From positions 136,028,001-136,092,000 of the forward strand of contig OZ024744.1 of assembly GCA_964016885.1 (NCBI GenBank): DNA of 64,000 nucleotides. The letters run 5' to 3'. Position numbers and translations under genes: made by a program. Of this stretch, positions 7,558 to 64,000 are shown in pieces. The DNA comes from Eledone cirrhosa (lineage: Eukaryota). The notes under the pieces are model-generated. The model saw nothing but the letters and a program-made list of their open reading frames with translations, was not told the origin of the DNA and did no database searches. Position 1 is the first letter of the stretch; the number at the start of each line of letters is the position of its first letter.

Positions 7558-7576
7558 GCTCTGTAAAGTGGTAGTG

Positions 7577-11840: not shown

Positions 11841-11845
11841 ATATA

Positions 11846-12412
11846 CAGGGGTTGGACAAAATAATGGAAACACCTAGCATCATAGCATCATCATTTTGAA
11901 ATATCTATAAAACCGTCAAAAGCTTGTTTATTTTTATTTTTTTTTATTTATTATTAGTGTTGCTTAATATGTTTTGTTAAAATTGCTGTTTGTTTTCAGA
12001 TATCATCAGAAAAAGGTAATTAAAATTCATTAAAATGCCAGATCTATCGGACTTTCAAAGAGGTCAAATTGTTGGTGCTCGTATGGCTGGTGCTAGCGTA
12101 ATGAAAACAGCCGAAATATTTGGTGTATCAAGAAGTACTGTCTCGAAAGTAATGACAGCTTTTGAGAAAGAGGGGAAAAAAACCTCCTCGTCGAAACAAA
12201 ACTCCGGAAGAAAACCAATACTTTCAGATAGGGACAGTCGGACTCTTACGCAAATTGTTAGAAAGGATCACAAAAGTACAGCTCCTAAAATTACTGCAGA
12301 GCTTAATGACCACCTCGAGAACAATAAAAATAAACAAGCTTTTGACGGTTTTATAGATATTTCAAAATTATGATGCTATGATGCTAGGTGTTTCCATTAT
12401 TTTGTCCAACCC

Positions 12413-12415
<3 letters not shown>
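11846..12415 (+). mobile_element. Internally deleted Tc1-like DNA transposon (570 bp)
   Basis: ~90-bp TIRs CAGGGGTTGGACAAAATAATGGAAACACC.../...GGTGTTTCCATTATTTTGTCCAACCCCTG with TA on both sides. Confidence 0.93.
12035..12373 (+). pseudogene. Truncated Tc1 transposase (N-terminal HTH DNA-binding region only)
   Basis: MPDLSDFQRGQIVGARMAGASV..TAEIFGVSRSTVSKV...SGRKP...TAPKITAELN, then runs into the right TIR. No DDE domain. Confidence 0.85.

Positions 12416-12471
<56 letters not shown>
12416..12471. repeat. (TA)n microsatellite
   Basis: Perfect TA run starting at the Tc1 target TA. Confidence 0.95.
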
Positions 12472-12476
<5 letters not shown>

Positions 12477-12492
12477 ATATCTTTGTAGATCC

Positions 12493-12840
12493 TAGACCTG
12501 GGCACAGTGTGCAGAGGGCCTGCAAAGATTGGAAAGAAATGAAGCCTGCATGCTTGGATAGATGTGTAATACATGAATGGCAAAGCATAAACGAACTGAG
12601 AAACTGGGCATAACAGGAATAAGATGCAATGTGGAGGAGAGGAGATTACGTATATATTGGACTCTTTGTTTCAAGGACACAACAATCAGTCTAGTGTTGG
12701 TGCCATGAGAAAATGTACCCGGTACACTCTGTAAAGTTTTGAAATGTATGTAAGCAAAATGTGGGGCCCCCAACTCTTCATCTTTGTCTAAGAAATGACA
12801 AAACACTTAGTACTGGTGCCATGACAAAATATCCATGGTA
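12493..12840 (+). mobile_element. Old RTE 3' fragment
   Basis: ACCTGGGCACAGTGTGCAGAG...GAAGCCTGCATGCT...GGCAAAGCATAAACGAACT resembles 9090-9230. GTGCCATGA..AAAAT.TACCC units resemble the 3' UTR repeats. Confidence 0.6.
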
Positions 12841-13182
12841 GATTGTTGAGATGCAAGATGTGAAACCCTGGCCCAACTAAGAGGTCATTAGTACTGATCC
12901 GTCTGTGACTACCTATTCAACACTTAACGGACAATATATGATAATATCTATATATTAATATGCTTATACCTACGTACTGTATGTCCAACTGTGTGTCACA
13001 CTTTCAGTAATTACATAGTAATTTATCTGCTGTTGAAAAAAAATCCCTATTATACATACAATAATTTGATGTAATGCCTTGCACCGAATATTTTCTTTCA
13101 TTGTCTTATTTATTATTCACCGCCCAAGAACAACTTCAACTCCCAACAGAAGAAATTATATATTTTATATTACTGTTGTGAG

Positions 13183-13315
13183 GTAAGTTGAAGATTGATA
13201 ATACACTCTATTTTTACCTCCGCCAAATAGGTAATGCTTTATCCTCGCATAGTTTGTTTGTTTTGTTTTAAGTTTTTATTTCTGACAAACATCATCTCTA
13301 ACCACTTTCTTATAG
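13183..13315 (+). other. Putative spliceosomal intron in the 5' UTR of the repeat ORF
   Basis: Donor AG|GTAAGT at 13183, T-rich body, CTAAC branch motif at 13298-13302, acceptor CTTTCTTATAG at 13315 (alternative AGs at 13318 and 13322). Confidence 0.55.
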
Positions 13316-13359
13316 CAGCTAGGTGTTCTTCATAATTACTGAAACAACCATTCTTAAAA

Positions 13360-13494
13360 ATGGAAGATAGAATAAGTCAACAAAGAGAGGCAGCGAGAGA
13401 GTGACAAAGAAGACTATGACAGCGGTTACGAGCAGAAGAGAGGCAAACAAACCGTGACTGTAATCGAGAACAAATGTAAGAAAGGAGGAATGAT
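13360..13494 (+). pseudogene. Degenerate in-frame N-terminal leader of the repeat ORF
   Basis: AAAAATGG start. Reads MEDRISQQREAARE*QRRL*QRLRAEERQTNRDCNREQM*ERRND, 45 codons in frame with ATG 13495, with stops at 13402, 13417 and 13477. Confidence 0.7.
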
Positions 13495-16400
13495 ATGAAC
13501 CAAGAGGAGAGAGAAGCTTCTCTACAGAATAGAAGTGGAGATCATGATAGAAGAAATAACATGAATCCAGAGGAGAGAGAAGCTTATCTACAGAATAGAA
13601 GAAGTGGAGATCATGATAGAAGAAATAACATGAATCCAGAGGAGAGAGAAGTTTATCTACAGAATAGAAGAAGTGGAGATCATGATAGAAGAAATAACAT
13701 GAATCCAGAGGAGAGAGAAGTTTATCTACAGAATAGAAGTGGAGATCATGATAGAAGAAATAACATGAATCCAGAGGAGAGAGAAGCTTATCTACAGAAT
13801 AGAAGAAGTGGAGATCATGATAGAAGAAATAACATGAATCCAGAGGAGAGAGAAGCTTCTCTACAGAATAGAAGTGGAGATCATGGTAGAAGAAATAACA
13901 TGAATCCAGAGGAGAGAGAAGTTTATCTACAGAATAGAAGAAGTGGAGATCATGACAGAAGAAATAACAGGAATCCAGAGGAGAGAGAAGTTTATCTACA
14001 GAATAGAAGTGGAGATCATGGTAGAAGAAATAACATGAATCCAGAGGAGAGAGAAGTTTATCTACAGAATAAAAGAAGTGGAGATCATGGTAGAATAAAT
14101 AACATGAATCCAGAGGAGAGAGAAGTTTATCTACAGATTAAAAGAAGTGGAGATCATGGTAGAAGAAATAACATGAATCCAGAGGAGAGAGAGGCTTATC
14201 TACAGAATAGAAGTGGAAATCATGATAGAAGAAATAACATGAATCCAGAGGAGAGAGAAGCTTATCTACAGAATAGAAGTGGAGATCATGATAGAAGAAA
14301 TAACATGAATCCAGAAGAGAGAGAAGCTTATCTACAGAATAGAAGTGGAGATCATGATAGAAGAAATAACATGAATCCAGAGGAGAGAGTAGCTTATCTA
14401 CAGAATAGAAGTGAAGATCATGATAGAGGAAATAACATGAATCCAGAGGAGAGAGAAGTATTTCTACAGAATAGAAGAAGTGGAGATCATGGTAGAAGAA
14501 ATAACATGAATCCAGAGGAGAGAGAAGTTTATCTACAGAATAGAAGTGGAGATCATGATAGAAGAAATAACATGAATCCAGAGGAGAGAGTAGCTTATCT
14601 ACAGAATAGAAGAAGTGGAGATCATGATAGAAGAAATAACATGAATCCAGAGGAGAGAGAAGCTTCTCTACAGAATAGAAGTGGAGATCATGGTAGAAGA
14701 AATAACATGAATCCAGAGGAGAGAGAAGCTTATCTACAGAATAGAAGAAGTGGAGATCATGATAGAAGAAATAACATGAATCCAGAGGAGAGAGAAGCTT
14801 CTCTACAGAATAGAAGTGGAGATCATGGTAGAAGAAATAACATGAATCCAGAGGAGAGAGAAGTTTATCTACAGAATAGAAGAAGTGGAGATCATGATAG
14901 AAGAAATAACATGAATCCAGAGGAGAGAGAAGTTTATCTACAGAATAGAAGTGGAGATCATGATAGAAGAAATAACATGAATCCAGAGGAGAGAGAAGCT
15001 TATCTACAGAATAGAAGAAGTGGAGATCATGATAGAAGAAATAACATGAATCCAGAGGAGAGAGAAGCTTCTCTACAGAATAGAAGTGGAGATCATGGTA
15101 GAAGAAATAACATGAATCCAGAGGAGAGAGAAGTTTATCTACAGAATAGAAGTGGAGATCATGGTAGAAGAAATAACATGAATCCAGAGGAGAGAGAAGT
15201 TTATCTACAGAATAAAAGAAGTGGAGATCATGGTAGAAGAAATAACATGAATCCAGAGGAGAGAGAAGCTTATCTACAGAATAGAAGTGGAGATCATGGT
15301 AGAAGAAATAACATGAATCCAGAGGAGAGAGAAGTTTATCTACAGAATAGAAGAAGTGGAGATCATGACAGAAGAAATAACAGGAATCCAGAGGAGAGAG
15401 AAGTTTATCTACAGAATAGAAGTGGAGATCATGGTAGAAGAAATAACATGAATCCAGAGGAGAGAGAAGTTTATCTACAGAATAAAAGAAGTGGAGATCA
15501 TGGTAGAAGAAATAACATGAATCCAGAGGAGAGAGAAGTTCATCTACAGAATAAAAGAAGTGGAGATCATGGTAGAAGAAATAACATGAATCCAGAGGAG
15601 AGAGAAGTTTATCTACAGAATAGAAGAAGTGGAGATCATGACAGAAGAAATAACAGGAATCCAGAGAGAGAAGTTTATCGACAGAATAGAAGTGGAGATC
15701 ATGGTAGAAGAAATAACATGAATCCAGAGGAGAGAGAAGTTTATCTACAGAATAAAAGAAGTGGAGATCATGGTAGAAGAAGTAACATGAATCCAGAGGA
15801 GAGAGAAGTTTATCTACAGAATAAAAGAAGTGGAGATCATGGTAGAAGAAATAACATGAATCCAGAGGAGAGAGAAGCTTATCTACAGAATAGAAGAAGT
15901 GGAGATCATGATAGAAGAAATAACATGAATCCAGAGGAGAGAGAAGTTTATCAACAGAATAGAAGAAGTGGAGATCATGATAGAAGAAATAACATGAATC
16001 CAGAGGAGAGAGAAGTTTATCTACAGAATAGAAGTGGAGATCATGATAGAAGAAATAACATGAATCCAGAGGAGAGAGAAGCTTATCTACAGAATAGAAG
16101 AAGTGGAGATCATGATAGAAGAAATAACATGAATCCAGAGGAGAGAGAAGTTTATCTACAGAATAGAAGAAGTGGAGATCATGATAGAAGAAATAACATG
16201 AATCCAGACGAGAGAGAAGCTTCTCTACAGAATAGAAGTGGAGATCATGGTAGAAGAAATAACATGAATCCAGAGGAGAGAGAAGTTTATCTACAGAATA
16301 GAAGTGGAGATCATGGTAGAAGAAATAACATGAATCCAGAGGAGAGAGAAGTTTATCTACAGAATAAAAGAAGTGGAGATCATGGTAGAAGAAATAACAT

Positions 16401-19400
16401 GAATCCAGCGGAGAGAGAAGCTTATCTACAGAATAGAAGTGGAGATCATGGTAGAAGAAATAACATGAATCCAGAGGAGAGAGAAGTTTATCTACAGAAT
16501 AAAAGAAGTGGAGATCATGGTAGAAGAAATAACATGAATCCAGCGGAGAGAGAAGCTTATCTACAGAATAGAAGTCGAGATCATGGTAGAAGAAATAACA
16601 TGAATCCAGAGGAGAGAGAAGTATTTCTACAGAATAGAAGAAGTGGAGATCATGGTAGAAGAAATAACATGAATCCAGAGGAGAGAGAAGTTTATCTACA
16701 GAATAGAAGTGGAGATCATGATAGAAGAAATAACATGAATCCAGAGGAGAGAGAAGCTTATCTACAGAATAGAAGAAGTGGAGATCATGATAGAAGAAAT
16801 AACATGAATCCAGAGGAGAGAGAAGCTTCTCTACAGAATAGAAGTGGAGATCATGGTAGAAGAAATAACATGAATCCAGAGGAGAGAGAAGTTTATCTAC
16901 AGAATAGAAGTGGAGATCATGGTAGAAGAAATAACATGAATCCAGAGGAGAGAGAAGTTTATCTACAGAATAAAAGAAGTGGAGATCATGGTAGAAGAAA
17001 TAACATGAATCCAGAGGAGAGAGAAGCTTATCTACAGAATAGAAGTGGAGATCATGGTAGAAGAAATAACATGAATCCAGAGGAGAGAGAAGTTTATCTA
17101 CAGAATAGAAGAAGTGGAGATCATGACAGAAGAAATAACAGGAATCCAGAGGAGAGAGAAGTTTATCTACAGAATAGAAGTGGAGATCATGGTAGAAGAA
17201 ATAACATGAATCCAGAGGAGAGAGAAGTTTATCTACAGAATAAAAGAAGTGGAGATCATGGTAGAAGAAATAACATGAATCCAGAGGAGAGAGAAGTTCA
17301 TCTACAGAATAAAAGAAGTGGAGATCATGGTAGAAGAAATAACATGAATCCAGAGGAGAGAGAAGTTTATCTACAGAATAGAAGAAGTGGAGATCATGAC
17401 AGAAGAAATAACAGGAATCCAGAGAGAGAAGTTTATCGACAGAATAGAAGTGGAGATCATGGTAGAAGAAATAACATGAATCCAGAGGAGAGAGAAGTTT
17501 ATCTACAGAATAAAAGAAGTGAAGATCATGGTAGAAGAAGTAACATGAATCCAGAGGAGAGAGAAGTTTATCTACAGAATAAAAGAAGTGGAGATCATGG
17601 TAGAAGAAATAACATGAATCCAGAGGAGAGAGAAGCTTATCTACAGAATAGAAGAAGTGGAGATCATGATAGAAGAAATAACATGAATCCAGAGGAGAGA
17701 GAAGTTTATCAACAGAATAGAAGAAGTGGAGATCATGATAGAAGAAATAACATGAATCCAGAGGAGAGAGAAGTTTATCTACAGAATAGAAGTGGAGATC
17801 ATGATAGAAGAAATAACATGAATCCAGAGGAGAGAGAAGCTTATCTACAGAATAGAAGAAGTGGAGATCATGATAGAAGAAATAACATGAATCCAGAGGA
17901 GAGAGAAGTTTATCTACAGAATAGAAGAAGTGGAGATCATGATAGAAGAAATAACATGAATCCAGACGAGAGAGAAGCTTCTCTACAGAATAGAAGTGGA
18001 GATCATGGTAGAAGAAATAACATGAATCCAGAGGAGAGAGAAGTTTATCTACAGAATAGAAGTGGAGATCATGGTAGAAGAAATAACATGAATCCAGAGG
18101 AGAGAGAAGTTTATCTACAGAATAAAAGAAGTGGAGATCATGGTAGAAGAAATAACATGAATCCAGCGGAGAGAGAAGCTTATCTACAGAATAGAAGTGG
18201 AGATCATGGTAGAAGAAATAACATGAATCCAGAGGAGAGAGAAGTTTATCTACAGAATAAAAGAAGTGGAGATCATGGTAGAAGAAATAACATGAATCCA
18301 GCGGAGAGAGAAGCTTATCTACAGAATAGAAGTCGAGATCATGGTAGAAGAAATAACATGAATCCAGAGGAGAGAGAAGTATTTCTACAGAATAGAAGAA
18401 GTGGAGATCATGGTAGAAGAAATAACATGAATCCAGAGGAGAGAGAAGTTTATCTACAGAATAGAAGAAGTGGAGATCATGACAGAAGAAATAACAGGAA
18501 TCCAGAGGAGAGAGAAGTTTATCTACAGAATAGAAGTGGAGATCATGGTAGAAGAAAAAACATAAATCCAGAGGAGAGAGAAGTTTATCTACAGAATAAA
18601 AGAAGTGGAGATCATGGTAGAAGAAATAACATGAATCCAGAGGAGAGAGAAGTTTATCTACAGAATAAAAGAAGTGGAGATCATGGTAGAAGAAATAACA
18701 TGAATCCAGAGGAGAGAGAGGCTTATCTACAGAATAGAAGTGGAAATCATGATAGAAGAAATAACATGAATCCAGAGGAGAGAGAAGCTTATCTACAGAA
18801 TAGAAGTGGAGATCATGATAGAAGAAATAACATGAATCCAGAGGAGAGAGAAGCTTATCTACAGAATAGAAGTGGAGATCATGATAGAAGAAATAACATG
18901 AATCCAGAGGAGAGAGTAGCTTATCTACAGAATAGAAGTGGAGATCATGATAGAAGAAATAACATGAATCCAGAGGAGAGAGAAGTATTTCTACAGAATA
19001 GAAGAAGTGGAGATCATGGTAGAAGAAATAACATGAATCCAGAGGAGAGAGAAGTTTATCTACAGAATAGAAGTGGAGATCATGATAGAAGAAATAACAT
19101 GAATCCAGAGGAGAGAGAAGCTTATCTACAGAATAGAAGAAGTGGAGATCATGATAGAAGAAATAACATGAATCCAGAGGAGAGAGAAGCTTCTCTACAG
19201 AATAGAAGTGGAGATCATGGTAGAAGAAATAACATGAATCCAGAGGAGAGAGAAGCTTATCTACAGACTAGAAGAAGTGGAGATCATGATAGAAGAAATA
19301 ACATGAATCCAGAGGAGAGAGAAGCTTCTCTACAGAATAGAAGTGGAGATCATGGTAGAAGAAATAACATGAATCCAGAGGAGAGAGAAGTTTATCTACA

Positions 19401-22400
19401 GAATAGAAGAAGCGGAGATCATGATAGAAGAAATAACATGAATCCAGAGGAGAGAGAAGTTTATCTACAGAATAGAAGTGGAGATCATGATAGAAGAAAT
19501 AACATGAATCCAGAGGAGAGAGAAGCTTATCTACAGAATAGAAGAAGTGGAGATCATGATAGAAGAATTAACATGAATCCAGAGGAGAGAGAAGCTTCTC
19601 TACAGAATAGAAGTGGAGATCATGGTAGAAGAAATAACATGAATCCAGAGGAGAGAGAAGTTTATCTACAGAATAGAAGTGGAGATCATGGTAGAAGAAA
19701 TAACATGAATCCAGAGGAGAGAGAAGTTTATCTACAGAATAAAAGAAGTGGAGATCATGGTAGAAGAAATAACATGAATCCAGAGGAGAGAGAAGCTTAT
19801 CTACAGAATAGAAGTGGAGATCATGGTAGAAGAAATAACATGAATCCAGAGGAGAGAGAAGTTTATCTACAGAATAGAAGTGGAGATCATGATAGAAGAA
19901 ATAACATGAATCCAGAGGAGAGAGAAGTTTATCTACAGAATAGAAGAAGTGGAGATCATGACAGAAGAAATAACAGGAATCCAGAGGAGAGAGAAGTTTA
20001 TCTACAGAATAGAAGTGGAGATCATGGTAGAAGAAATAACATGAATCCAGAGGAGAGAGAAGTTTATCTACAGAATAAAAGAAGTGGAGATCATGGTAGA
20101 AGAAATAACATGAATCCAGAGGAGAGAGAAGTTTATCTACAGAATAGAAGTGGAGATCATGGTAGAAGAAATAACATGAATCCAGAGGAGAGAGAAGTTT
20201 ATCTACAGAATAGAAGAAGTGGAGATCATGATAGAAGAAATAACATGAATCCAGAGGAGAGAGAAGTTTATCTACAGAATAGAAGAAGTGGAGATCATGA
20301 TAGAAGAAATAACATGAATCCAGAGGAGAGAGAAGCTTATCTACAGAATAGAAGAAGTGGAGATCATGATAGAAGAAATAACATGAATCCAGAGGAGAGA
20401 GAAGTTTATCTACAGAATAGAAGAAGTGGAGATCATGATAGAAGAAATAACATGAATCCAGAGGAGAGAGAAGTTTATCTACAGAATAGAAGTGGAGATC
20501 ATGATAGAAGAAATAACATGAATCCAGAGGAGAGAGAAACTTATCTACAGAATAGAAGAAGTGGAGATCATGATAGAAGAAATAACATGAATCCAGAGGA
20601 GAGAGAAGCTTCTCTACAGAATAGAAGTGGAGATCATGGTAGAAGAAATAACATGAATCCAGAGGAGAGAGAAGTTTATCTACAGAATAGAAGTGGAGAT
20701 CATGGTAGAAGAAATAACATGAATCCAGAGGAGAGAGAAGTTTATCTACAGAATAGAAGAAGTGGAGATCATGATAGAAGAAATAACATGAATCCAGAGG
20801 AGAGAGAAGCTTCTCTACAGAATAGAAGTGGAGATCATGATAGAAGAAATAACATGAATCCAGAGGAGAGAGAAGTATTTCTACAGAATAGAAGAAGTGG
20901 AGATCATGGTAGAAGAAATAACATGAATCCAGAGGAGAGAGAAGTTTATCTACAGAATAGAAGTGGAGATCATGATAGAAGAAATAACATGAATCCAGAG
21001 GAGAGAGAAGTTTATCTACAGAATAGAAGTGGAGATCATGGTAGAAGAAATAACATGAATCCAGAGGAGAGAGAAGTTTATCTACAGAATAGAAGAAGTG
21101 GAGATCATGATAGAAGAAATAACATGAATCCAGAGGAGAGAGAAGCTTCTCTACAGAATAGAAGTGGAGATCATGATAGAAGAAATAACATGAATCCAGA
21201 GGAGAGAGAAGTATTTCTACAGAATAGAAGAAGTGGAGATCATGGTAGAAGAAATAACATGAATCCAGAGGAGAGAGAAGTTTATCTACAGAATAGAAGT
21301 GGAGATCATGATAGAAGAAATAACATGAATCCAGAGGAGAGAGAAGCTTATCTACAGAATAGAAGAAGTGGAGATCATGATAGAAGAAATAACATGAATC
21401 CAGAGGAGAGAGAAGCTTCTCTACAGAATAGAAGTGGAGATCATGGTAGAAGAAATAACATGAATCCAGAGGAGAGAGAAGCTTATCTACAGAATAGAAG
21501 AAGTGGAGATCATGATAGAAGAAATAACATGAATCCAGAGGAGAGAGAAGCTTCTCTACAGAATAGAAGTGGAGATCATGGTAGAAGAAATAACATGAAT
21601 CCAGAGGAGAGAGAAGTTTATCTACAGAATAGAAGAAGTGGAGATCATGATAGAAGAAATAACATGAATCCAGAGGAGAGAGAAGTTTATCTACAGAATA
21701 GAAGTGGAGATCATGATAGAAGAAATAACATGAATCCAGAGGAGAGAGAAGCTTATCTACAGAATAGAAGAAGTGGAGATCATGGTAGAAGAAATAACAT
21801 GAATCCAGCGGAGAGAGAAGCTTATCTACAGAATAGAAGTGGAGATCATGGTAGAAGAAATAACATGAATCCAGAGGAGAGAGAAGTATTTCTACAGAAT
21901 AGAAGAAGTGGAGATCATGGTAGAAGAAATAACATGAATCCAGAGGAGAGAGAAGTTTATCTACAGAATAGAAGTGGAGATCATGGTAAAAGAAATAACA
22001 TGAATCCAGAGGAGAGAGAAGCTTATCTACAGAATAGAAGTGGAGATCATGGTAGAAGAAATAACATGAATCCAGAGGAGAGAGAAGTTTATCTACAGAA
22101 TAGAAGAAGTGGAGATCATGACAGAAGAAATAACAGGAATCCAGAGGAGAGAGAAGTTTATCTACAGAATAGAAGTGGAGATCATGGTAGAAGAAATAAC
22201 ATGAATCCAGAGGAGAGAGAAGTTTATCTACAGAATAAAAGAAGTGGAGATCATGGTAGAAGAAATAACATGAATCCAGAGGAGAGAGAAGTTTATCTAC
22301 AGAATAAAAGAAGTGGAGATCATGGTAGAAGAAATAACATGAATCCAGAGGAGAGAGAGGGTTATCTACAGAATAGAAGTGGAAATCATGATAGAAGAAA

Positions 22401-25400
22401 TAACATGAATCCAGAGGAGAGAGAAGCTTATCTACAGAATAGAAGTGGAGATCATGATAGAAGAAATAACATGAATCCAGAGGAGAGAGAAGCTTATCTA
22501 CAGAATAGAAGTGGAGATCATGATAGAAGAAATAACATGAATCCAGAGGAGAGAGTAGCTTATCTACAGAATAGAAGTGGAGATCATGATAGAAGAAATA
22601 ACATGAATCCAGAGGAGAGAGAAGTATTTCTACAGAATAGAAGAAGTGGAGATCATGGTAGAAGAAATAACATGAATCCAGAGGAGAGAGAAGTTTATCT
22701 ACAGAATAGAAGTGGAGATCATGATAGAAGAAATAACATGAATCCAGAGGAGAGAGAAGTTTATCTACAGAATAAAAGAAGTGGAGATCATGGTAGAAGA
22801 AATAACACGAATCCAGAGGAGAGAGAGGCTTATCTACAGAATAGAAGTGGAAATCATGATAGAAGAAATAACATGAATCCAGAGGAGAGAGAAGCTTATC
22901 TACAGAATAGAAGTGGAGATCATGATAGAGGAAATAACATGAATCCAGAGGAGAGAGAAGCTTATCTACAGAATAGAAGTGGAGATCATGATAGAAGAAA
23001 TAACATGAATCCAGAGGAGAGAGTAGCTTATCTACAGAATAGAAGTGGAGATCATGATAGAAGAAATAACATGAATCCAGAGGAGAGAGAAGTATTTCTA
23101 CAGAATAGAAGAAGTGGAGATCATGGTAGAAGAAATAACATGAATCCAGAGGAGAGAGAAGTTTATCTACAGAATAGAAGTGGAGATCATGATAGAAGAA
23201 ATAACATGAATCCAGAGGAGAGAGTAGCTTATCTACAGAATAGAAGAAGTGGAGATCATGATAGAAGAAATAACATGAATCCAGAGGAGAGAGAAGCTTC
23301 TCTACAGAATAGAAGTGGAGATCATGGTAGAAGAAATAACATGAATCCAGAGGAGAGAGAAGCTTATCTACAGAATAGAAGAAGTGGAGATCATGATAGA
23401 AGAAATAACATGAATCCAGAGGAGAGAGAAGCTTCTCTACAGAATAGAAGTGGAGATCATGGTAGAAGAAATAACATGAATCCAGAGGAGAGAGAAGTTT
23501 ATCTACAGAATAGAAGAAGTGGAGATCATGATAGAAGAAATAACATGAATCCAGAGGAGAGAGAAGTTTATCTACAGAATAGAAGTGGAGATCATGATAG
23601 AAGAAATAACATGAATCCAGAGGAGAGAGAAGCTTATCTACAGAATAGAAGAAGTGGAGATCATGATAGAAGAAATAACATGAATCCAGAGGAGAGAGAA
23701 GCTTCTCTACAGAATAGAAGTGGAGATCATGGTAGAAGAAATAACATGAATCCAGAGGAGAGAGAAGTTTATCTACAGAATAGAAGTGGAGATCATGGTA
23801 GAAGAAATAACATGAATCCAGAGGAGAGAGAAGTTTATCTACAGAATAAAAGAAGTGGAGATCATGGTAGAAGAAATAACATGAATCCAGAGGAGAGAGA
23901 AGCTTATCTACAGAATAGAAGTGGAGATCATGGTAGAAGAAATAACATGAATCCAGAGGAGAGAGAAGTTTATCTACAGAATAGAAGTGGAGATCATGAT
24001 AGAAGAAATAACATGAATCCAGAGGAGAGAGAAGTTTATCTACAGAATAGAAGAAGTGGAGATCATGACAGAAGAAATAACAGGAATCCAGAGGAGAGAG
24101 AAGTTTATCTACAGAATAGAAGTGGAGATCATGGTAGAAGAAATAACATGAATCCAGAGGAGAGAGAAGTTTATCTACAGAATAAAAGAAGTGGAGATCA
24201 TGGTAGAAGAAATAACATGAATCCAGAGGAGAGAGAAGTTTATCTACAGAATAGAAGTGGAGATCATGGTAGAAGAAATAACATGAATCCAGAGGAGAGA
24301 GAAGTTTATCTACAGAATAGAAGAAGTGGAGATCATGATAGAAGAAATAACATGAATCCAGAGGAGAGAGAAGTTTATCTACAGAATAGAAGTGGAGATC
24401 ATGATAGAAGAAATAACATGAATCCAGAGGAGAGAGAAGCTTATCTACAGAATAGAAGAAGTGGAGATCATGATAGAAGAAATAACATGAATCCAGAGGA
24501 GAGAGAAGCTTCTCTACAGAATAGAAGTGGAGATCATGGTAGAAGAAATAACATGAATCCAGAGGAGAGAGAAGTTTATCTAGAGAATAGAAGTGGAGAT
24601 CATGGTAGAAGAAATAACATGAATCCAGAGGAGAGAGAAGTTTATCTACAGAATAAAAGAAGTGGAGATCATGGTAGAAGAAATAACATGAATCCAGCGG
24701 AGAGAGAAGCTTATCTACAGAATAGAAGTGGAGATCATGATAGAAGAAATAACATGAATCCAGAGGAGAGAGAAGTATTTCTACAGAATAGAAGAAGTGG
24801 AGATCATGGTAGAAGAAATAACATGAATCCAGAGGAGAGAGAAGTTTATCTACAGAATAGAAGTGGAGATCATGATAGAAGAAATAACATGAATCCAGAG
24901 GAGAGAGAAGTTTATCTACAGAATAAAAGAAGTGGAGATCATGGTAGAAGAAATAACATGAATCCAGAGGAGAGAGAGGCTTATCTACAGAATAGAAGTG
25001 GAAATCATGATAGAAGAAATAACATGAATCCAGAGGAGAGAGAAGCTTATCTACAGAATAAAAGAAGTGGAGATCATGGTAGAAGAAATAACATGAATCC
25101 AGAGGAGAGAGAAGTTTATCTACAGAATAAAAGAAGTGGAGATCATGGTAGAAGAAATAACATGAATCCAGAGGAGAGAGAGGCTTATCTACAGAATAGA
25201 AGTGGAAATCATGATAGAAGAAATAACATGAATCCAGAGGAGAGAGAAGCTTATCTACAGAATAGAAGTGGAGATCATGATAGAAGAAATAACATGAATC
25301 CAGAGGAGAGAGAAGCTTATCTACAGAATAGAAGTGGAGATCATGATAGAAGAAATAACATGAATCCAGAGGAGAGAGTAGCTTATCTACAGAATAGAAG

Positions 25401-28400
25401 TGGAGATCATGATAGAAGAAATAACATGAATCCAGAGGAGAGAGAAGTATTTCTACAGAATAGAAGAAGTGGAGATCATGGTAGAAGAAATAACATGAAT
25501 CCAGAGGAGAGAGAAGTTTATCTACAGAATAGAAGTGGAGATCATGATAGAAGAAATAACATGAATCCAGAGGAGAGAGAAGCTTCTCTACAGAATAGAA
25601 GTGGAGATCATGGTAGAAGAAATAACATGAATCCAGAGGAGAGAGAAGCTTATCTACAGAATAGAAGAAGTGGAGATCATGATAGAAGAAATAACATGAA
25701 TCCAGAGGAGAGAGAAGCTTCTCTACAGAATAGAAGTGGAGATCATGGTAGAAGAAATAACATGAATCCAGAGGAGAGAGAAGTTTATCTACAGAATAGA
25801 AGTGGAGATCATGGTAGAAGAAATAACATGAATCCAGAGGAGAGAGAAGTTTATCTACAGAATAAAAGAAGTGGAGATCATGGTAGAAGAAATAACATGA
25901 ATCCAGAGGAGAGAGAAGTTTATCTACAGAATAAAAGAAGTGGAGATCATGGTAGAAGAAATAACATGAATCCAGAGGAGAGAGAAGTTTATCTACAGAA
26001 TAGAAGAAGTGGAGATCATGATAGAAGAAATAACATGAATCCAGAGGAGAGAGAAGTTTATCTACAGAATAGAAGAAGTGGAGATCATGACAGAAGAAAT
26101 AACAGGAATCCAGAGGAGAGAGAAGTTTATCTACAGAATAGAAGTGGAGATCATGGTAGAAGAAATAACATGAATCCAGAGGAGAGAGAAGTTTATCTAC
26201 AGAATAAAAGAAGTGGAGATCATGGTAGAAGAAATAACATGAATCCAGAGGAGAGAGAAGTTTATCTACAGAATAAAAGAAGTGGAGATCATGGTAGAAG
26301 AAATAACATGAATCCAGAGGAGAGAGAAGTTTATCTACAGAATAGAAGAAGTGGAGATCATGACAGAAGAAATAACAGGAATCCAGAGAGAGAAGTTTAT
26401 CTACAGAATAGAAGTGGAGATCATGGTAGAAGAAATAACATGAATCCAGAGGAGAGAGAAGTTTATCTACAGAATAAAAGAAGTGGAGATCATGGTAGAA
26501 GAAATAACATGAATCCAGAGGAGAGAGAAGTTTATCTACAGAATAAAAGAAGTGGAGATCATGGTAGAAGAAATAACATGAATCCAGAGGAGAGAGAAGC
26601 TTATCTACAGAATAGAAGAAGTGGAGATCATGATAGAAGAAATAACATGAATCCAGAGGAGAGAGAAGTTTATCAACAGAATAGAAGAAGTGGAGATCAT
26701 GATAGAAGAAATAACATGAATCCAGAGGAGAGAGAAGTTTATCTACAGAATAGAAGTGGAGATCATGATAGAAGAAATAACATGAATCCAGAGGAGAGAG
26801 AAGGTTATCTACAGAATAGAAGAAGTGGAGATCATGATAGAAGAAATAACATGAATCCAGAGGAGAGAGAAGTTTATCTACAGAATAGAAGAAGTGGAGA
26901 TCATGATAGAAGAAATAACATGAATCCAGACGAGAGAGAAGCTTCTCTACAGAATAGAAGTGGAGATCATGGTAGAAGAAATAACATGAATCCAGAGGAG
27001 AGAGAAGTTTATCTACAGAATAGAAGTGGAGATCATGGTAGAAGAAATAACATGAATCCAGCGGAGAGAGAAGCTTATCTACAGAATAGAAGTGGAGATC
27101 ATGGTAGAAGAAATAACATGAATCCAGAGGAGAGAGAAGTTTATCTCCAGAATAAAAGAAGTGGAGATCATGGTAGAAGAAATAACATGAATCCAGCGGA
27201 GAGAGAAGCTTATCTACAGAATAGAAGTCGAGATCATGGTAGAAGAAATAACATGAATCCAGAGGAGAGAGAAGTATTTCTACAGAATAGAAGAAGTGGA
27301 GATCATGGTAGAAGAAATAACATGAATCCAGAGGAGAGAGAAGTTTATCTACAGAATAGAAGAAGTGGAGATCATGACAGAAGAAATAACAGGAATCCAG
27401 AGGAGAGAGAAGTTTATCTACAGAATAGAAGTGGAGATCATGGTAGAAGAAATAACATGAATCCAGAGGAGAGAGAAGTTTATCTACAGAATAAAAGAAG
27501 TGGAGATCATGGTAGAAGAAATAACATGAATCCAGAGGAGAGAGAAGTTTATCTACAGAATAAAAGAAGTGGAGATCATGGTAGAAGAAATAACATGAAT
27601 CCAGAGGAGAGAGAGGCTTATCTACAGAATAGAAGTGGAAATCATGATAGAAGAAATAACATGAATCCAGAGGAGAGAGAAGCTTATCTACAGAATAGAA
27701 GTGGAGATCATGATAGAAGAAATAACATGAATCCAGAGGAGAGAGAAGCTTATCTACAGAATAGAAGTGGAGATCATGATAGAAGAAATAACATGAATCC
27801 AGAGGAGAGAGTAGCTTATCTACAGAATAGAAGTGGAGATCATGATAGAAGAAATAACATGAATCCAGAGGAGAGAGAAGTATTTCTACAGAATAGAAGA
27901 AGTGGAGATCATGGTAGAAGAAATAACATGAATCCAGAGGAGAGAGAAGTTTATCTACAGAATAGAAGTGGAGATCATGATAGAAGAAATAACATGAATC
28001 CAGAGGAGAGAGAAGCTTATCTACAGAATAGAAGAAGTGGAGATCATGATAGAAGAAATAACATGAATCCAGAGGAGAGAGAAGCTTCTCTACAGAATAG
28101 AAGTGGAGATCATGGTAGAAGAAATAACATGAATCCAGAGGAGAGAGAAGCTTATCTACAGAATAGAAGAAGTGGAGATCATGATAGAAGAAATAACATG
28201 AATCCAGAGGAGAGAGAAGCTTCTCTACAGAATAGAAGTGGAGATCATGGTAGAAGAAATAACATGAATCCAGAGGAGAGAGAAGTTTATCTACAGAATA
28301 GAAGAAGTGGAGATCATGATAGAAGAAATAACATGAATCCAGAGGAGAGAGAAGCTTATCTACAGAATAGAAGAAGTGGAGATCATGATAGAAGAAATAA

Positions 28401-50000: not shown

Positions 50001-53000
50001 AATCCAGAGGAGAGAGAAGTTTATCTACAGAATAAAAGAAGTGGAGATCATGGTAGAAGAAATAACATGAATCCAGAGGAGAGAGAAGCTTATCTACAGA
50101 ATAGAAGAAGTGGAGATCATGATAGAAGAAATAACATGAATCCAGAGGAGAGAGAAGCTTCTCTACAGAATAGAAGTGGAGATCATGGTAGAAGAAATAA
50201 CATGAATCCAGAGGAGAGAGAAGTTTATCTACAGAATAAAAGAAGTGGAGATCATGGTAGAAGAAATAACATGAATCCAGAGGAGAGAGAAGTTTATCTA
50301 CAGAATAGAAGTGGAGATCATGGTAGAAGAAATAACATGAATCCAGAGGAGAGAGAAGTTTATCTACAGAATAAAAGAAGTGGAGATCATGATAGAAGAA
50401 ATAACATGAATCCAGAGGAGAGAGAAGTTTATCTACAGAATAGAAGAAGTGGAGATCATGATAGAAGAAATAACATGAATCCAGAGGAGAGAGAAGCTTA
50501 TCTACAGAATAGAAGAAGTGGAGATCATGATAGAAGAAATAACATGAATCCAGAGGAGAGAGAAGTTTATCTACGGAATAGAAGAAGTGGAGATCATGAT
50601 AGAAGAAATAACATGAATCCAGAGGAGAGAGAAGTTTATCTACAGAATAGAAGTGGAGATCATGATAGAAGAAATAACATGAATCCAGAGGAGAGAGAAG
50701 CTTATCTACAGAATAGAAGAAGTGGAGATCATGATAGAAGAAATAACATGAATCCAGAGGAGAGAGAAGCTTATCTACAGAATAGAAGTGGAGATCATGA
50801 TAGAAGAAATAACATGAATCCAGAGGAGAGAGAAGCTTATCTACAGAATAGAAGTGGAGATCATGATAGAAGAAATAACATGAATCCAGAGGAGAGAGAA
50901 GCTTATCTACAGAATAGAAGTGGAGATCATGATAGAAGAAATAACATGAATCCAGAGGAGAGAGAAGTATTTCTACAGAATAGAAGAAGTGGAGATCATG
51001 GTAGGAGAAATAACATGAATCCAGAGGAGAGAGAAGCTTATCTACAGAATAGAAGAAGTGGAGATCATGATAGAAGAAATAACATGAATCCAGAGGAGAG
51101 AGAAGCTTCTCTACAGAATAGAAGTGGAGATCATGGTAGAAGAAATAACATGAATCCAGAGGAGAGAGAAGTTTATCTACAGAATAGAAGAAGTGGAGAT
51201 CATGATAGAAGAAATAACATGAATCCAGAGGAGAGAGAAGTTTATCTACAGAATAGAAGAAGTGGAGATCATGGTAGAAGAAATAACAGGAATCCAGAGG
51301 AGAGAGAAGTTTATCTACAGAATAGAAGAAGTGGAGATCATGATAGAAGAAATAACATGAATCCAGAGGAGAGAGAAGTTTATCTACAGAAAAGAAGTGG
51401 AGATCATGACAGAAGAAATAACAGGAATCCAGAGGAGAGAGAAGTTTATCTACAGAATAGAAGTGGAGATCATGGTAGAAGAAATAACATGAATCCAGAG
51501 GAGAGAGAAGTTTATCTACAGAATAGAAGTGGAGATCATGATAGAAGAAATAACATGAATCCAGAGGAGAGAGTAGCTTATCTACAGAATAGAAGAAGTG
51601 GAGATCATGATAGAAGAAATAACATGAATCCAGAGGAGAGAGAAGCTTCTCTACAGAATAGAAGTGGAGATCATGGTAGAAGAAATAACATGAATCCAGA
51701 GGAGAGAGAAGCTTATCTACAGAATAGAAGAAGTGGAGATCATGATAGAAGAAATAACATGAATCCAGAGGAGAGAGAAGCTTCTCTACAGAATAGAAGT
51801 GGAGATCATGGTAGAAGAAATAACATGAATCCAGAGGAGAGAGAAGTTTATCTACAGAATAGAAGAAGTGGAGATCATGATAGAAGAAATAACATGAATC
51901 CAGAGGAGAGAGAAGTTTATCTACAGAATAGAAGTGGAGATCATGATAGAAGAAATAACATGAATCCAGAGGAGAGAGAAGCTTATCTACAGAATAGAAG
52001 AAGTGGAGATCATGATAGAAGAAATAACATGAATCCAGAGGAGAGAGAAGTTTATCTACAGAATAAAAGAAGTGGAGATCATGGTAGAAGAAATAACATG
52101 AATCCAGAGGAGAGAGAAGTTTATCTACAGAATAAAAGAAGTGGAGATCATGGTAGAAGAAATAACATGAATCCAGAGGAGAGAGAAGTTTATCTACAGA
52201 ATAAAAGAAGTGGAGATCATGGTAGAAGAAATAACATGAATCCAGAGGAGAGAGAAGTTTATCTACAGAATAAAAGAAGTGGAGATCATGGTAGAAGAAA
52301 TAACATGAATCCAGAGGAGAGAGAAGCTTATCTACAGAATAGAAGAAGTGGAGATCATGATAGAAGAAATAACATGAATCCAGAGGAGAGAGAAGCTTCT
52401 CTACAGAATAGAAGTGGAGATCATGGTAGAAGAAATAACATGAATCCAGAGGAGAGAGAAGTTTATCTACAGAATAAAAGAAGTGGAGATCATGGTAGAA
52501 GAAATAACATGAATCCAGAGGAGAGAGAAGTTTATCTACAGAATAAAAGAAGTGGAGATCATGGTAGAAGAAATAACATGAATCCAGAGGAGAGAGAAGT
52601 TTATCTACAGAATAAAAGAAGTGGAGATCATGGTAGAAGAAATAACATGAATCCAGAGGAGAGAGAGGCTTATCTACAGAATAGAAGTGGAAATCATGAT
52701 AGAAGAAATAACATGAATCCAGAGGAGATCATGATAGAAGAAATAACATGAATCCAGAGGAGAGAGAAGCTTCTCTACAGAATAGAAGTGGAGATCATGA
52801 TAGAAGAAATAACATGAATCCAGAGGAGAGAGAAGCTTATCTACAGAATAGAAGTGGAGATCATGATAGAAGAAATAACATGAATTCAGAGGAGAGAGAA
52901 GTATTTCTACAGAATAGAAGAAGTGGAGATCATGGTAGAAGAAATAACATGAATCCAGAGGAGAGAGAAGTTTATCTACAGAATAGAAGTGGAGATCATG

Positions 53001-59000: not shown

Positions 59001-62000
59001 ATCATGATAGAAGAAATAACATGAATCCAGAGGAGAGAGAAGTTTATCTACAGAATAGAAGTGGAGATCATGATAGAAGAAATAACATGAATCCAGAGGA
59101 GAGAGAAGCTTATCTACAGAATAGAAGAAGTGGAGATCATGATAGAAGAAATAACATGAATCCAGAGGAGAGAGAAGCTTCTCTACAGAATAGAAGTGGA
59201 GATCATGGTAGAAGAAATAACATGAATCCAGAGGAGAGAGAAGTTTATCTACAGAATAGAAGTGGAGATCATGGTAGAAGAAATAACATGAATCCAGAGG
59301 AGAGAGAAGTTTATCTACAGAATAAAAGAAGTGGAGATCATGGTAGAAGAAATAACATGAATCCAGCGGAGAGAGAAGCTTATCTACAGAATAGAAGTGG
59401 AGATCATGGTAGAAGAAATAACATGAATCCAGAGGAGAGAGAAGTTTATCTACAGAATAAAAGAAGTGGAGATCATGGTAGAAGAAATAACATGAATCCA
59501 GCGGAGAGAGAAGCTTATCTACAGAATAGAAGTGGAGATCATGGTAGAAGAAATAACATGAATCCAGAGGAGAGAGAAGTATTTCTACAGAATAGAAGAA
59601 GTGGAGATCATGGTAGAAGAAATAACATGAATCCAGAGGAGAGAGAGGCTTATCTACAGAATAGAAGTGGAAATCATGATAGAAGAAATAACATGAATCC
59701 AGAGGAGAGAGAAGCTTATCTACAGAATAGAAGTGGAGATCATGATAGAAGAAATAACATGAATCCAGAGGAGAGAGAAGCTTATCTACAGAATAGAAGT
59801 GGAGATCATGATAGAAGAAATAACATGAATCCAGAGGAGAGAGAAGCTTATCTACAGAATAGAAGTGGAGATCATGATAGAAGAAATAACATGAATCCAG
59901 AGGAGAGAGAAGTATTTCTACAGAATAGAAGAAGTGGAGATCATGGTAGAAGAAATAACATGAATCCAGAGGAGAGAGAAGTTTATCTACAGAATAAAAG
60001 AAGTGGAGATCATGGTAGAAGAAATAACATGAATCCAGAGGAGAGAGAAGTTTATCTACAGAATAGAAGTGGAGATCATGGTAGAAGAAATAACATGAAT
60101 CCAGAGGAGAGAGAAGTTTATCTACAGAATAGAAGAAGTGGAGATCATGATAGAAGAAATAACATGAATCCAGAGGAGAGAGAAGTTTATCTACAGAATA
60201 GAAGAAGTGGAGATCATGATAGAAGAAATAACATGAATCCAGAGGAGAGAGAAGCTTATCTACAGAATAGAAGAAGTGGAGATCATGATAGAAGAAATAA
60301 CATGAATCCAGAGGAGAGAGAAGTTTATCTACAGAATAGAAGAAGTGGAGATCATGATAGAAGAAATAACATGAATCCAGAGGAGAGAGAAGTTTATCTA
60401 CAGAATAGAAGTGGAGATCATGATAGAAGAAATAACATGAATCCAGAGGAGAGAGAAGCTTATCTACAGAATAGAAGAAGTGGAGATCATGATAGAAGAA
60501 ATAACATGAATCCAGAGGAGAGAGAAGCTTCTCTACAGAATAGAAGTGGAGATCATGGTAGAAGAAATAACATGAATCCAGAGGAGAGAGAAGTTTATCT
60601 ACAGAATAGAAGTGGAGATCATGGTAGAAGAAATAACATGAATCCAGAGGAGAGAGAAGTTTATCTACAGAATAAAAGAAGTGGAGATCATGGTAGAAGA
60701 AATAACATGAATCCAGAGGAGAGAGAAGCTTATCTACAGAATAGAAGTGGAGATCATGATAGAAGAAATAACATGAATCCAGAGGAGAGAGAAGCTTATC
60801 TACAGAATAGAAGAAGTGGAGATCATGATAGAAGAAATAACATGAATCCAGAGGAGAGAGAAGCTTCTCTACAGAATAGAAGTGGAGATCATGGTAGAAG
60901 AAATAACATGAATCCAGAGGAGAGAGAAGTTTATCTACAGAATAGAAGTGGAGATCATGGTAGAAGAAATAACATGAATCCAGAGGAGAGAGAAGTTTAT
61001 CTACAGAATAAAAGAAGTGGAGATCATGGTAGAAGAAATAACATGAATCCAGAGGAGAGAGAAGTTTATCTACAGAATAGAAGAAGTGGAGATCATGACA
61101 GAAAAATAACAGGAATCCAGAGGAGAGAGAAGTTTATCTACAGAATAGAAGTGGAGATCATGGTAGAAGAAATAACATGAATCCAGAGGAGAGAGAAGTT
61201 TATCTACAGAATAAAAGAAGTGGAGATCATGGTAGAAGAAATAACATGAATCCAGAGGAGAGAGAAGTTTATCTACAGAATAAAAGAAGTGGAGATCATG
61301 GTAGAAGAAATAACATGAATCCAGAGGAGAGAGAAGCTTATCTACAGAATAGAAGAAGTGGAGATCATGATAGAAGAAATAACATGAATCCAGAGGAGAG
61401 AGAAGTTTATCTACAGAATAGAAGAAGTGGAGATCATGATAGAAGAAATAACATGAATCCAGAGGAGAGAGAAGTTTATCTACAGAATAGAAGAAGTGGA
61501 GATCATGATAGAAGAAATAACATGAATCCAGAGGAGAGAGAAGCTTATCTACAGAATAGAAGAAGTGGAGATCATGATAGAAGAAATAACATGAATCCAG
61601 AGGAGAGAGAAGTTTATCTACAGAATAGAAGAAGTGGAGATCATGATAGAAGAAATAACATGAATCCAGAGGAGAGAGAAGTTTATCTACAGAATAGAAG
61701 TGGAGATCATGATAGAAGAAATAACATGAATCCAGAGGAGAGACAAGCTTATCTACAGAATAGAAGAAGTGGAGATCATGATAGAAGAAATAACATGAAT
61801 CCAGAGGAGGGAGAAGCTTCTCTACAGAATAGAAGTGGAGATCATGGTAGAAGAAATAACATGAATCCAGAGGAGAGAGAAGTTTATCTACAGAATAGAA
61901 GTGGAGATCATGGTAGAAGAAATAACATGAATCCAGAGGAGAGAGAAGTTTATCTACAGAATAAAAGAAGTGGAGATCATGGTAGAAGAAATAACATGAA

Positions 62001-64000
62001 TCCAGAGGAGAGAGAAGTTTATCTACAGAATAAAAGAAGTGGAGATCATGGTAGAAGAAATAACATGAATCCAGAGGAGAGAGAGGCTTATCTACAGAAT
62101 AGAAGTGGAAATCATGATAGAAGAAATAACATGAATCCAGAGGAGAGAGAAGCTTATCTACAGAATAGAAGTGGAGATCATGATAGAAGAAATAACATGA
62201 ATCCAGAGGAGAGAGAAGCTTATCTACAGAATAGAAGTGGAGATCATGATAGAAGAAATAACATGAATCCAGAGGAGAGAGTAGCTTATCTACAGAATAG
62301 AAGTGGAGATCATGATAGAAGAAATAACATGAATCCAGAGGAGAGAGAAGTATTTCTACAGAATAGAAGAAGTGGAGATCATGGTAGAAGAAATAACATG
62401 AATCCAGAGGAGAGAGAAGTTTATCTACAGAATAGAAGTGGAGATCATGATAGAAGAAATAACATGAATCCAGAGTAGAGAGTAGCTTATCTACAGAATA
62501 GAAGAAGTGGAGATCATGATAGAAGAAATAAGATGAATCCAGAGGAGAGAGAAGCTTCCCTACAGAATAGAAGTGGAGATCATGGTAGAAGAAATAACAT
62601 GAATCCAGAGGAGAGAGAAGCTTATCTACAGAATAGAAGAAGTGGAGATCATGATAGAAGAAATAACATGAATCCAGAGGAGAGAGAAGCTTCTCTACAG
62701 AATAGAAGTGGAGATCATGGTAGAAGAAATAACATGAATCCAGAGGAGAGAGAAGTTTATCTACAGAATAGAAGAAGTGGAAATCATGATAGAAGAAATA
62801 ACATGAATCCAGAGGAGAGAGAAGTTTATCTACAGAATAGAAGTGGAGATCATGATATAAGAAATAACATGAATCCAGAGGAGAGAGAAGCTTATCTACA
62901 GAATAGAAGTGGAGATCATGGTAGAAGAAATAACATGAATCCAGAGGAGAGAGAAGTTTATCTACAGAATAAAAGAAGTGGAGATCATGGTAGAAGAAAT
63001 AACATGAATCCAGAGGAGAGAGAAGTTTATCTACAGAATAGAAGTGGAGATCATGGTAGAAGAAATAACATGAATCCAGAGGAGAGAGAAGTTTATCTAC
63101 AGAATAGAAGAAGTGGAGATCATGATAGAAGAAATAACATGAATCCAGAGGAGAGAGAAGTTTATCTACAGAATAGAAGAAGTGGAGATCATGATAGAAG
63201 AAATAACATGAATCCAGAGGAGAGAGAAGCTTATCTACAGAATAGAAGAAGTGGAGATCATGATAGAAGAAATAACATGAATCCAGAGGAGAGAGAAGTT
63301 TATCTACAGAATAGAAGAAGTGGAGATCATGATAGAAGAAATAACATGAATCCAGAGGAGAGAGAAGTTTATCTACAGAATAGAAGTGGAGATCATGATA
63401 GAAGAAATAACATGAATCCAGAGGAGAGAGAAGCTTATCTACAGAATAGAAGAAGTGGAGATCATGATAGAAGAAATAACATGAATCCAGAGGAGAGAGA
63501 AGCTTCTCTACAGAATAGAAGTGGAGATCATGGTAGAAGAAATAACATGAATCCAGAGGAGAGAGAAGTTTATCTACAGAATAGAAGTGGAGATCATGGT
63601 AGAAGAAATAACATGAATCCAGAGGAGAGAGAAGTTTATCTACAGAATAAAAGAAGTGGAGATCATGGTAGAAGAAATAACATGAATCCAGCGGAGAGAG
63701 AAGCTTATCTACAGAATAGAAGTGGAGATCATGGTAGAAGAAATAACATGAATCCAGCGGAGAGAGAAGCTTATCTACAGAATAGAAGTGGAGATCATGG
63801 TAGAAGAAATAACATGAATCCAGAGGAGAGAGAAGTATTTCTACAGAATAGAAGAAGTGGAGATCATGGTAGAAGAAATAACATGAATCCAGAGGAGAGA
63901 GAGGCTTATCTACAGAATAGAAGTGGAAATCATGATAGAAGAAATAACATGAATCCAGAGGAGAGAGAAGCTTATCTACAGAATAGAAGTGGAGATCATG
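13495..64000 (+). repeat. Giant tandem array of 66/69-bp monomers (~750 copies in window; continues past the end)
   Basis: Consensus ATGAATCCAGAGGAGAGAGAAG(T/C)TTATCTACAGAAT[AGA/AAA/-]AGAAGTGGAGATCATG(A/G)TAGAAGAAATAAC. ATG spacing is 66 (13495-13561) or 69 (13561-13630). No foreign insertion seen in 50.5 kb. Confidence 0.99.

What the first reader, a model, noticed from the sequence alone, without database searches (positions are those of the whole stretch)
12947..64000. Satellite-scale (>50 kb) array apparently born from STPR-like coding repeats of a Helitron-type ORF
Seen: ~750 monomers of 66/69 bp read as one 22/23-aa repeat (>16,000 codons in total). They are preceded in the same frame by an ATG leader, a canonical intron and an A|TCTATATA terminus. 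Known: STPR domains (Bombyx FMBP-1) are 23-aa helical DNA-binding repeats, usually in a few copies. Similar E/R-rich repeats occur N-terminal to animal Helitron Rep-helicase proteins, and Helitrons are known sources of tandem arrays. Inference: the monomer is one STPR-like unit amplified hundreds of times in place. The result is either a protein-derived satellite or a giant repetitive protein gene.
Basis: partly seen in the sequence, partly recalled or inferred. Interest (0 to 1): 0.88.

Follow-up and report, generated by a model that had tools for sequence, protein, structure and literature searches.

The report
Satellite grown from transposase coding repeat
A broken rolling-circle transposon carries about 2,350 tandem copies (160 kb) of the 66-69 bases that coded one unit of its predicted DNA-binding arm, which likely multiplied in place as non-coding satellite DNA after the gene died, and related copies with 1 to 733 units show the steps.

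Summary
The array is real and larger than reported: 748 units in the window, about 2,350 in 159.7 kb. It lies inside one non-autonomous Helitron copy, from A|TC at 12947 to a hairpin-CTAG end 378 nt past the array; the Rep/helicase gene is deleted. Near-complete relatives in this genome carry a few of the same 23-aa units in front of HUH-Rep and PIF1. Dispersed copies hold up to 14 units; a second, older array on another contig holds 733. The unit is STPR-like, not canonical STPR: the predicted fold's top PDB match is Bombyx STPR (weak margin), but E1/T2/R9 are absent and Pfam's cut-off is missed. A giant protein gene is unlikely: three private stops break the leader, variants look neutral, and stop and frameshift units were themselves amplified. 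An 8,195-codon ATG frame remains untested (no RNA holder listed). Nested block duplications point to unequal recombination, not rolling-circle amplification. Verdict: a new variant of transposon-derived satellite. The scan noted the same process earlier in another genome (116 units). The same module heads Octopus BTB proteins.

The parts
12947..12962 (+). Helitron 5' terminus TCTATATATTAATATG, preceded by A
   Evidence: homology of 13 aligned paralogues starts here, flanks differ; in run X1 loose ends at 12946
13183..13322 (+). putative 5'-UTR intron (GAG|GTAAGT ... AG at 13318 or 13322); splicing untested
   Evidence: sequence; conserved in the family
13360..13494 (+). dead start of the RepHel ORF (MEDRISQQREAARE*...), stops at 13402, 13417, 13477 private to this copy
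   Evidence: open in paralogues such as L089
13495..64000 (+). satellite array of 66/69-nt units (748 in the window). It continues beyond the window to G000:C28:136,201,176 (extended coordinate 173,176) and is followed there by the element's 378-nt 3' part (G000:C28:136,201,177-136,201,554): deletion junction, last ~37 codons of the PIF1 helicase, 3' UTR, subterminal hairpin and CTAG end
13495..38082 (+). residual ATG-started open frame of 8,195 codons; no sign of selection; expression untested
38044..38988 (+). four single-copy 1-2-nt indel units clustered in 0.9 kb (recent mutations or sequence errors)
52647..52747 (+). first of 24 amplified copies of a 101-nt frameshifting unit

Best explanation
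This is one dead, internally deleted Helitron copy whose transposase N-terminal 23-aa coding repeat likely multiplied in place, by unequal recombination, into a 160-kb satellite that is likely non-coding. Shown: the termini; the deletion of Rep/helicase; the same unit a few times over in front of HUH-Rep and PIF1 in near-complete relatives; a series of copies with few, 14, 733 and ~2,350 units; leader stops; amplified stop and frameshift units; nested block duplications. Inferred order: (1) an autonomous Helitron with a few STPR-like units gave deletion derivatives; (2) the pre-existing 69-nt tandem units let slippage or unequal exchange add copies of the 'RRSGDHDRR' unit; (3) one such array, shared by descent or exchange with the C18 array, grew by duplicating blocks of 34-267 units, blind to reading frame, in a satellite-rich region 298 kb from the contig end. 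The long open frames are likely a by-product of a young, homogeneous array of 3n-nt units. Predicted only: that the ancestral units bind the DNA major groove as STPR does.
For: Termini; 41 3' ends found, 33 ending CTAG, 39 followed by T. Relatives L088, L089, L090, L093 cover 1,324-1,480 of 1,530 aa of an intact RepHel and hold the HUH and Walker A motifs; Pfam Helitron_like_N 9.7e-54, PIF1 6.4e-36. Unit numbers. Non-coding: three leader stops; stops at 4 of 11 possible transversion sites against 43 of 114 missense (p=1.0); in the open first 361 units 7 synonymous and 30 missense variants against 36 and 159 possible; 24 x 101-nt and 11 x 68-nt frameshift units and 19 TAG units amplified; the antisense strand also has a 4,628-codon frame; the C18 array has 98 stop and 84 frameshift units of 732. 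Recombination: block periods of 34-267 units; an 18,178-bp duplication with 2 differences; single-copy units enriched at both edges (8-9% against 0-3.5%); no internal 5' or 3' Helitron ends. Young against the insertion: leader 5.5% from the family majority, units 2.5% from their own majority. Not an assembly invention: run X1 word depth 4.9 on the flank and 5,900-15,400 on the monomer.
Against: The first 24.6 kb has no stop or frameshift (chance 0.16-0.31 by a rough count of 11 or 7 independent events); if the four clustered indels at 38.0-39.0 kb are errors, the frame would reach about 52.7 kb. Unstratified, synonymous variants are over-represented (24 of 36 against 74 of 159, p=0.04), though not within transitions (p=0.14) or transversions (p=0.77). 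The base after CTAG is A, not the expected T. tblastn of the intact RepHel found nothing in the 3' tail; the helicase remnant rests on 92.6% DNA identity to L088. The near-identical 18-kb duplication could be an assembly error, so the exact length is uncertain. X1 may be the assembly's own sample, and word depth is no copy number.
Confidence: 0.85

Rival explanations
1. Giant repetitive protein gene: the Helitron promoter drives an mRNA translated from ATG 13495 into about 8,195 aa (roughly 1 MDa) of tandem STPR-like helices.
For: ATG-started open frame 13495-38082; conserved putative intron; the same module is open at the head of BTB proteins in three Octopus species, so it can sit in annotated host proteins.
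Against: Upstream ATG 13360 ends after 14 codons; neutral variant spectrum in the open part; frame-breaking units amplified downstream; equally long antisense frames; the sister array has decayed, longest + frame 426 codons; the amplified unit has lost M13, and 1,109 of 2,349 units are 22 aa.
Confidence: 0.04
2. Rolling-circle amplification by a Helitron transposase produced the array, as a concatemer of internal sequence or during transposition.
For: The mechanism is described for Helitrons (PMC12628747, passages). The two arrays share derived variants absent from 76 dispersed units (CATGGT, GAAGTTTAT), which could mean an early array moved with an element.
Against: One 5' and one 3' end, none inside, whereas the described arrays have several 5' ends; no fixed period but nested blocks of many sizes and ages; the two arrays have different deletion junctions.
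Confidence: 0.07
3. The array is largely an assembly over-expansion of a short repeat.
For: An 18,178-bp duplication differs at 2 sites only; no read spanning the array was seen.
Against: 158 distinct unit sequences in position-specific blocks; monomer word depth 1,200-3,100 times the flank's in run X1; a second array with its own variants.
Confidence: 0.04

Closest known systems
Helitron/Helentron central tandem repeats that became satellites (DINE-TR1 of Drosophila; Crassostrea Helentron arrays), as reviewed in PMC12628747 and PMC9659126 (passages and table rows read)
   Same: A tandem array between intact Helitron ends, with short and long forms in one genome.
   Different: Here the monomer is a coding unit of the element's own RepHel ORF, still in frame, and one element is inflated to 160.6 kb.
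Satellites matching transposon ORF pieces (HinfI/CR1 ORF2, PROsat/L1 ORF2, rye E3900/gag, CficCl-61-40/CACTA Tnp2; PMC9659126, passages and Table 1 rows)
   Same: Satellite monomer derived from transposon coding DNA.
   Different: As listed there, those are ORF fragments; here the monomer equals one protein repeat unit, and the intermediates survive.
STPR domain of Bombyx FMBP-1 (PDB 5D23; Pfam PF21107; PMC4856987, part 1 of 5 and passages)
   Same: 23-aa period; R6, L10, R20; predicted 2-residue linker plus 21-residue helix; top match of 48,161 chains.
   Different: M1, N2, Y9 in place of the hallmark E1, T/S2, R9; below Pfam cut-off; DNA binding untested.
STPR-bearing Helitron1 elements (HELIANO, PMC11417382, passages)
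   Same: STPRs are reported almost only in HLE1. In this genome a 1,718-aa ORF holds both PF21107 and PF14214.
   Different: This family has a divergent M1/Y9 unit that Pfam misses; no expansion to satellite appears in the passages read.

Membership tests
Helitron (HLE1), non-autonomous | 5' TC terminus after A, shared among copies | tested here: met
Helitron (HLE1), non-autonomous | 3' CTRR end with subterminal hairpin | tested here: met
   CTAG at extended 173,554; imperfect hairpin, -4.2 kcal/mol; 33 of 41 copies end CTAG
Helitron (HLE1), non-autonomous | insertion between A and T | tested here: inconclusive
   this copy reads A|TC...CTAG|A; 39 of 41 copies have T; empty site not sought
Helitron (HLE1), non-autonomous | derives from an element with HUH-Rep and PIF1 helicase | tested here: met
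   relatives L088/L089/L090/L093 with the same leader end and tail; all broken, no intact autonomous copy found
STPR repeat (PF21107) | strict 23-residue tandem unit | tested here: inconclusive
   23 aa in ancestral units; in the array 1,196 units of 23 aa and 1,109 of 22 aa
STPR repeat (PF21107) | Glu1, Thr/Ser2, Arg9 (PMC4856987 passages) | tested here: not met
   Met1, Asn2, Tyr9 in the array and in most ancestral units
STPR repeat (PF21107) | DNA-contact residues R6, L10, M13, R20 | tested here: inconclusive
   R6, L10, R20 kept; M13 only in the later ancestral units, not in the amplified unit
STPR repeat (PF21107) | Pfam gathering score (27 bits) | tested here: not met
   no hit for two array peptides; best relative 12.2 bits, 1 of 4 N-terminal pieces
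STPR repeat (PF21107) | 2-residue linker plus 21-residue helix per unit | tested here: inconclusive
   predicted model H48-68, H71-91, H94-116, pLDDT 71.5; 5D23 rank 1, Z 6.8, rmsd 3.9, 64 aligned, next row Z 6.1; Foldseek and PDB sequence searches blank
STPR repeat (PF21107) | binds AT-rich DNA in the major groove | not testable with these tools
   needs binding assays
Satellite DNA | long head-to-tail array of homogeneous monomers | tested here: met
   2,349 units, 159.7 kb, mean pairwise difference 3.4%
Satellite DNA | evolves without coding constraint | tested here: met
   one unstratified test gave p=0.04 the other way; translation untested
Satellite DNA | heterochromatic state | not testable with these tools
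   only context: other satellites follow directly; 298 kb from the contig end

The most novel reading that the evidence does not exclude
The first 24.6 kb is still transcribed from the Helitron promoter and translated into a ~1-MDa chain of about 360 STPR-like helices: a giant DNA-wrapping protein born from a transposase arm by satellite-style amplification, from the same module that octopus BTB proteins appear to have recruited.
Probability: 0.04. Interest if true: 0.9.

Novelty: new variant of a known kind. Interest (0 to 1): 0.5.

Why it matters
Satellite origins are rarely traceable. Here the parent gene, copies with few and 14 units, and two large arrays of different age (733 units, 7.3% diversity; ~2,350 units, 3.4%) sit in one genome. 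Because the monomer is a codon-phased protein unit, stops and frameshifts act as a built-in test that growth ignores coding. This makes the library and unequal-exchange models directly testable across individuals and species. It also warns annotators that kilocodon ORFs in such arrays arise without selection. The same transposase module heads annotated octopus BTB proteins, so one module may have had two fates: satellite seed and recruited protein domain.

Tried and rejected
Expression: no RNA holder listed, so no evidence either way. Pfam found no STPR in the array peptide; its DUF hits are low-complexity sums. PDB sequence searches with one protein and with a 6-sequence profile were blank; Foldseek gave nothing useful. 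The ESM Atlas first hit was an STPR cluster at 0.86 (173 features; PF21107 on 63% of members), a lead only. The register test against 17 canonical units put 6 of 7 units first of 23 registers with 0 of 300 shuffles above, but those units were picked by a pattern that fixes R6 and L10, so it is partly circular. The regularly spaced Rep hits on C20/C27 were checked as possible giant sister elements: another family, no leader, unit or tail match. A third large array was sought with an exact 32-mer: of 1,960 forward hits, 1,858 are C28 and 97 are C18; the 14 reverse hits are dispersed. Diverged or unassembled arrays would be missed. No Helitron-type N-terminal exon was found within about 75 kb upstream of this genome's BTB/STPR gene on C4. 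RAD-seq runs X9 and X10 gave 31 and 14 reads, uninformative; small-share runs of other organisms were not used as evidence. Read support for the 3' junction and the genomic context of P0026 remain open. Literature searches listed no paper on a satellite made from an STPR-coding unit; I saw listings, and passages of four papers; supplements were not read (the HELIANO tables may bear on STPR placement).
Full report
Observation. The window is G000:C28:136,028,001-136,092,000 of a 3.0-Gb genome; the closest named proteins are from Octopus. TRF finds a 66/69-nt array from 13495 to the window end, 748 units. The longest frame is 8,200 codons, and the leader from ATG 13360 has stops at 13402, 13417 and 13477 that the aligned paralogues lack, apart from one (L006) that shares the change at 13402.

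It is a Helitron. The leader has 50 matches in the genome (lower bound). Thirteen aligned paralogues share the boundary at TC 12947 with unrelated flanks. A 378-nt tail follows the array and ends in a hairpin and CTAG. Of 41 such ends in the loci held, 33 end CTAG and 39 are followed by T; this copy is followed by A. Four relatives (L088, L089, L090, L093) join the same leader end and units to a near-complete but broken RepHel, covering 1,324-1,480 of the 1,530 aa of intact P0003, with the HUH and Walker A motifs (Walker A not matched in L090) and Pfam Helitron_like_N and PIF1 hits. The giant copy is a deletion derivative running from the repeats to about the last 37 helicase codons. That remnant is identified by 92.6% DNA identity to L088; direct tblastn did not detect it. 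No intact autonomous copy of this family was found.

The monomer is a coding unit. Relatives encode MEDRISQQREAARERQ... followed by a few 23-aa units and then the Rep region. Dispersed copies carry about 1-14 units. A second array lies at C18:11,361,599-11,411,625: 733 units, 50 kb, no leader within the 41 kb upstream, a different deletion junction, the same 3' end. It is older (mean pairwise difference 7.3% against 3.4%) and has 98 stop and 84 frameshift units of 732. The arrays share variants absent from 76 dispersed units, so they likely share an ancestral short array or exchanged sequence. An exact 32-mer count leaves no room for a third similar array in the assembly.

STPR-like, not STPR. 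PMC4856987 (part 1 of 5 and passages) defines STPR as strict 23-aa units with E1, T/S2 and R9, DNA contacts at R6, R9, L10, Y16, R20, and a 2-residue linker plus 21-residue helix. Ours has M1, N2, Y9 but keeps R6, L10 and R20. Pfam misses it. For likeness: the predicted model shows the 2+21 pattern; its top match of 48,161 chains is the Bombyx STPR-DNA complex 5D23 (Z 6.8, rmsd 3.9, 64 aligned), within 1 Z of plain helices. A profile of six own-genome copies found 45 proteins; of the 23 scanned, 3 pass the STPR cut-off and 2 fall below it. Sister Helitrons here carry canonical STPR at the same place in the ORF, and HELIANO reports STPRs almost only in HLE1 (PMC11417382, passages). DNA binding is inferred, not shown.

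Coding or not. Distinct stop variants occupy 4 of 11 possible transversion sites, missense 43 of 114, synonymous 4 of 13 (p=1.0 and 0.77). Against this reading, synonymous sites are over-represented when classes are pooled (p=0.04); within transitions p=0.14. In the open first 361 units the counts are 7 synonymous and 30 missense, as the 36:159 opportunity predicts. Frame-breaking units were amplified: 24 x 101 nt, 11 x 68 nt, 19 with TAG. With 7-11 independent breaks, a clean first 361 units has a rough chance of 0.31-0.16. The antisense strand has a 4,628-codon frame. An ATG frame of 8,195 codons (13495-38082) remains and could not be tested, because no RNA holder was listed.

Mechanism. Unit order shows nested duplications of 34-267 units. 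Examples: 18,178 bp with 2 differences, 7,459 bp with 4, 2,286 bp with 5. Single-copy units concentrate at both edges, and no Helitron end lies inside. This fits unequal exchange (inference) better than the rolling-circle route, which gives several 5' ends (PMC12628747, passages). The leader is 5.5% from the family majority while units are 2.5% from theirs, so most growth likely followed insertion. The array ends 298 kb from the contig end among other satellites. In run X1, word depth is 4.9 on the flank and 5,900-15,400 on the monomer, the order expected for about 3,080 units; this is no true copy number, and X1 may be the source sample.

Comparison and novelty. Helitron-internal repeats turning into satellites, and satellites from transposon ORF pieces, are known (PMC12628747, PMC9659126; passages and table rows). 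Searches listed nothing on a monomer equal to one transposase protein repeat. The scan noted the same process in another genome (e1-9585707, 116 units; unchecked here). Verdict: new variant of a known kind, interest 0.5.

Side finding. The same N-terminal module, 69% identical over about half of query P0001, heads BTB proteins annotated in O. vulgaris, O. sinensis and O. bimaculoides. Their paralogues start with a canonical-looking STPR stretch instead, and an unnamed protein joins the module to an HMG box (P0026). Since an unnamed intact RepHel (P0003) has the same unit type, transfer from Helitron to host gene is the likelier direction (inference); these are gene models, not tested here.

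Noticed in passing
P0004, P0005, P0013: Octopus BTB-domain proteins ('Ken-like', LOC106877738) begin with this Helitron family's N-terminal repeat module, open in three species; paralogues lack it, and one (P0024) begins with a region that looks like a THAP domain (recalled, untested). Possible recruitment of transposon DNA-binding modules.
   Followed up: partly
P0026: Unnamed 331-aa protein with the same Helitron-type module fused to an HMG box; gene model and source not checked.
   Followed up: partly
G000:C18:11,361,599-11,411,625 (L112-L117): Second, older 50-kb array of the same unit with a Helitron 3' end and no leader.
   Followed up: yes
G000:C20:3.5-5.2 Mb, C27:13.0-15.5 Mb, C19, C16: Near-identical Rep copies of another Helitron family recur about every 70-200 kb, most with an open frame of the same 362-aa length; looks like large segmental repeats.
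   Followed up: partly
beyond the window, extended 173,555-208,118 (L041-L045): Right after the CTAG end: an AATATATTAATACG stretch like a decayed Helitron 5' end, then 48-nt satellites (6 kb and 19.6 kb) and a 40-nt array; a short inverted 48-nt array also lies at window 7144-7556.
   Followed up: no
window about 1610-6672: Broken Ty3/Gypsy-type LTR retrotransposon (RT, RNase H and integrase hits) with two similar LTR-like ends.
   Followed up: partly
window 10147-10875 (-): C2H2 zinc-finger array (8 Pfam stretches).
   Followed up: partly
window about 11845-12415: Short element with inverted ends and Tc1-like coding remnants (recalled likeness), next to a (TA)n run.
   Followed up: no
L098-L099 (G000:C2:315,526,157-315,531,310): 1,718-codon Helitron ORF with at least 11 near-identical canonical STPR units: an expansion of the repeat within an open frame in another family.
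   Followed up: partly
L149, L150, L151: Very short derivatives of about 370-440 bp (67 nt of leader, 2-4 units, 3' end); L068 has a second 5' end directly after CTAG.
   Followed up: partly
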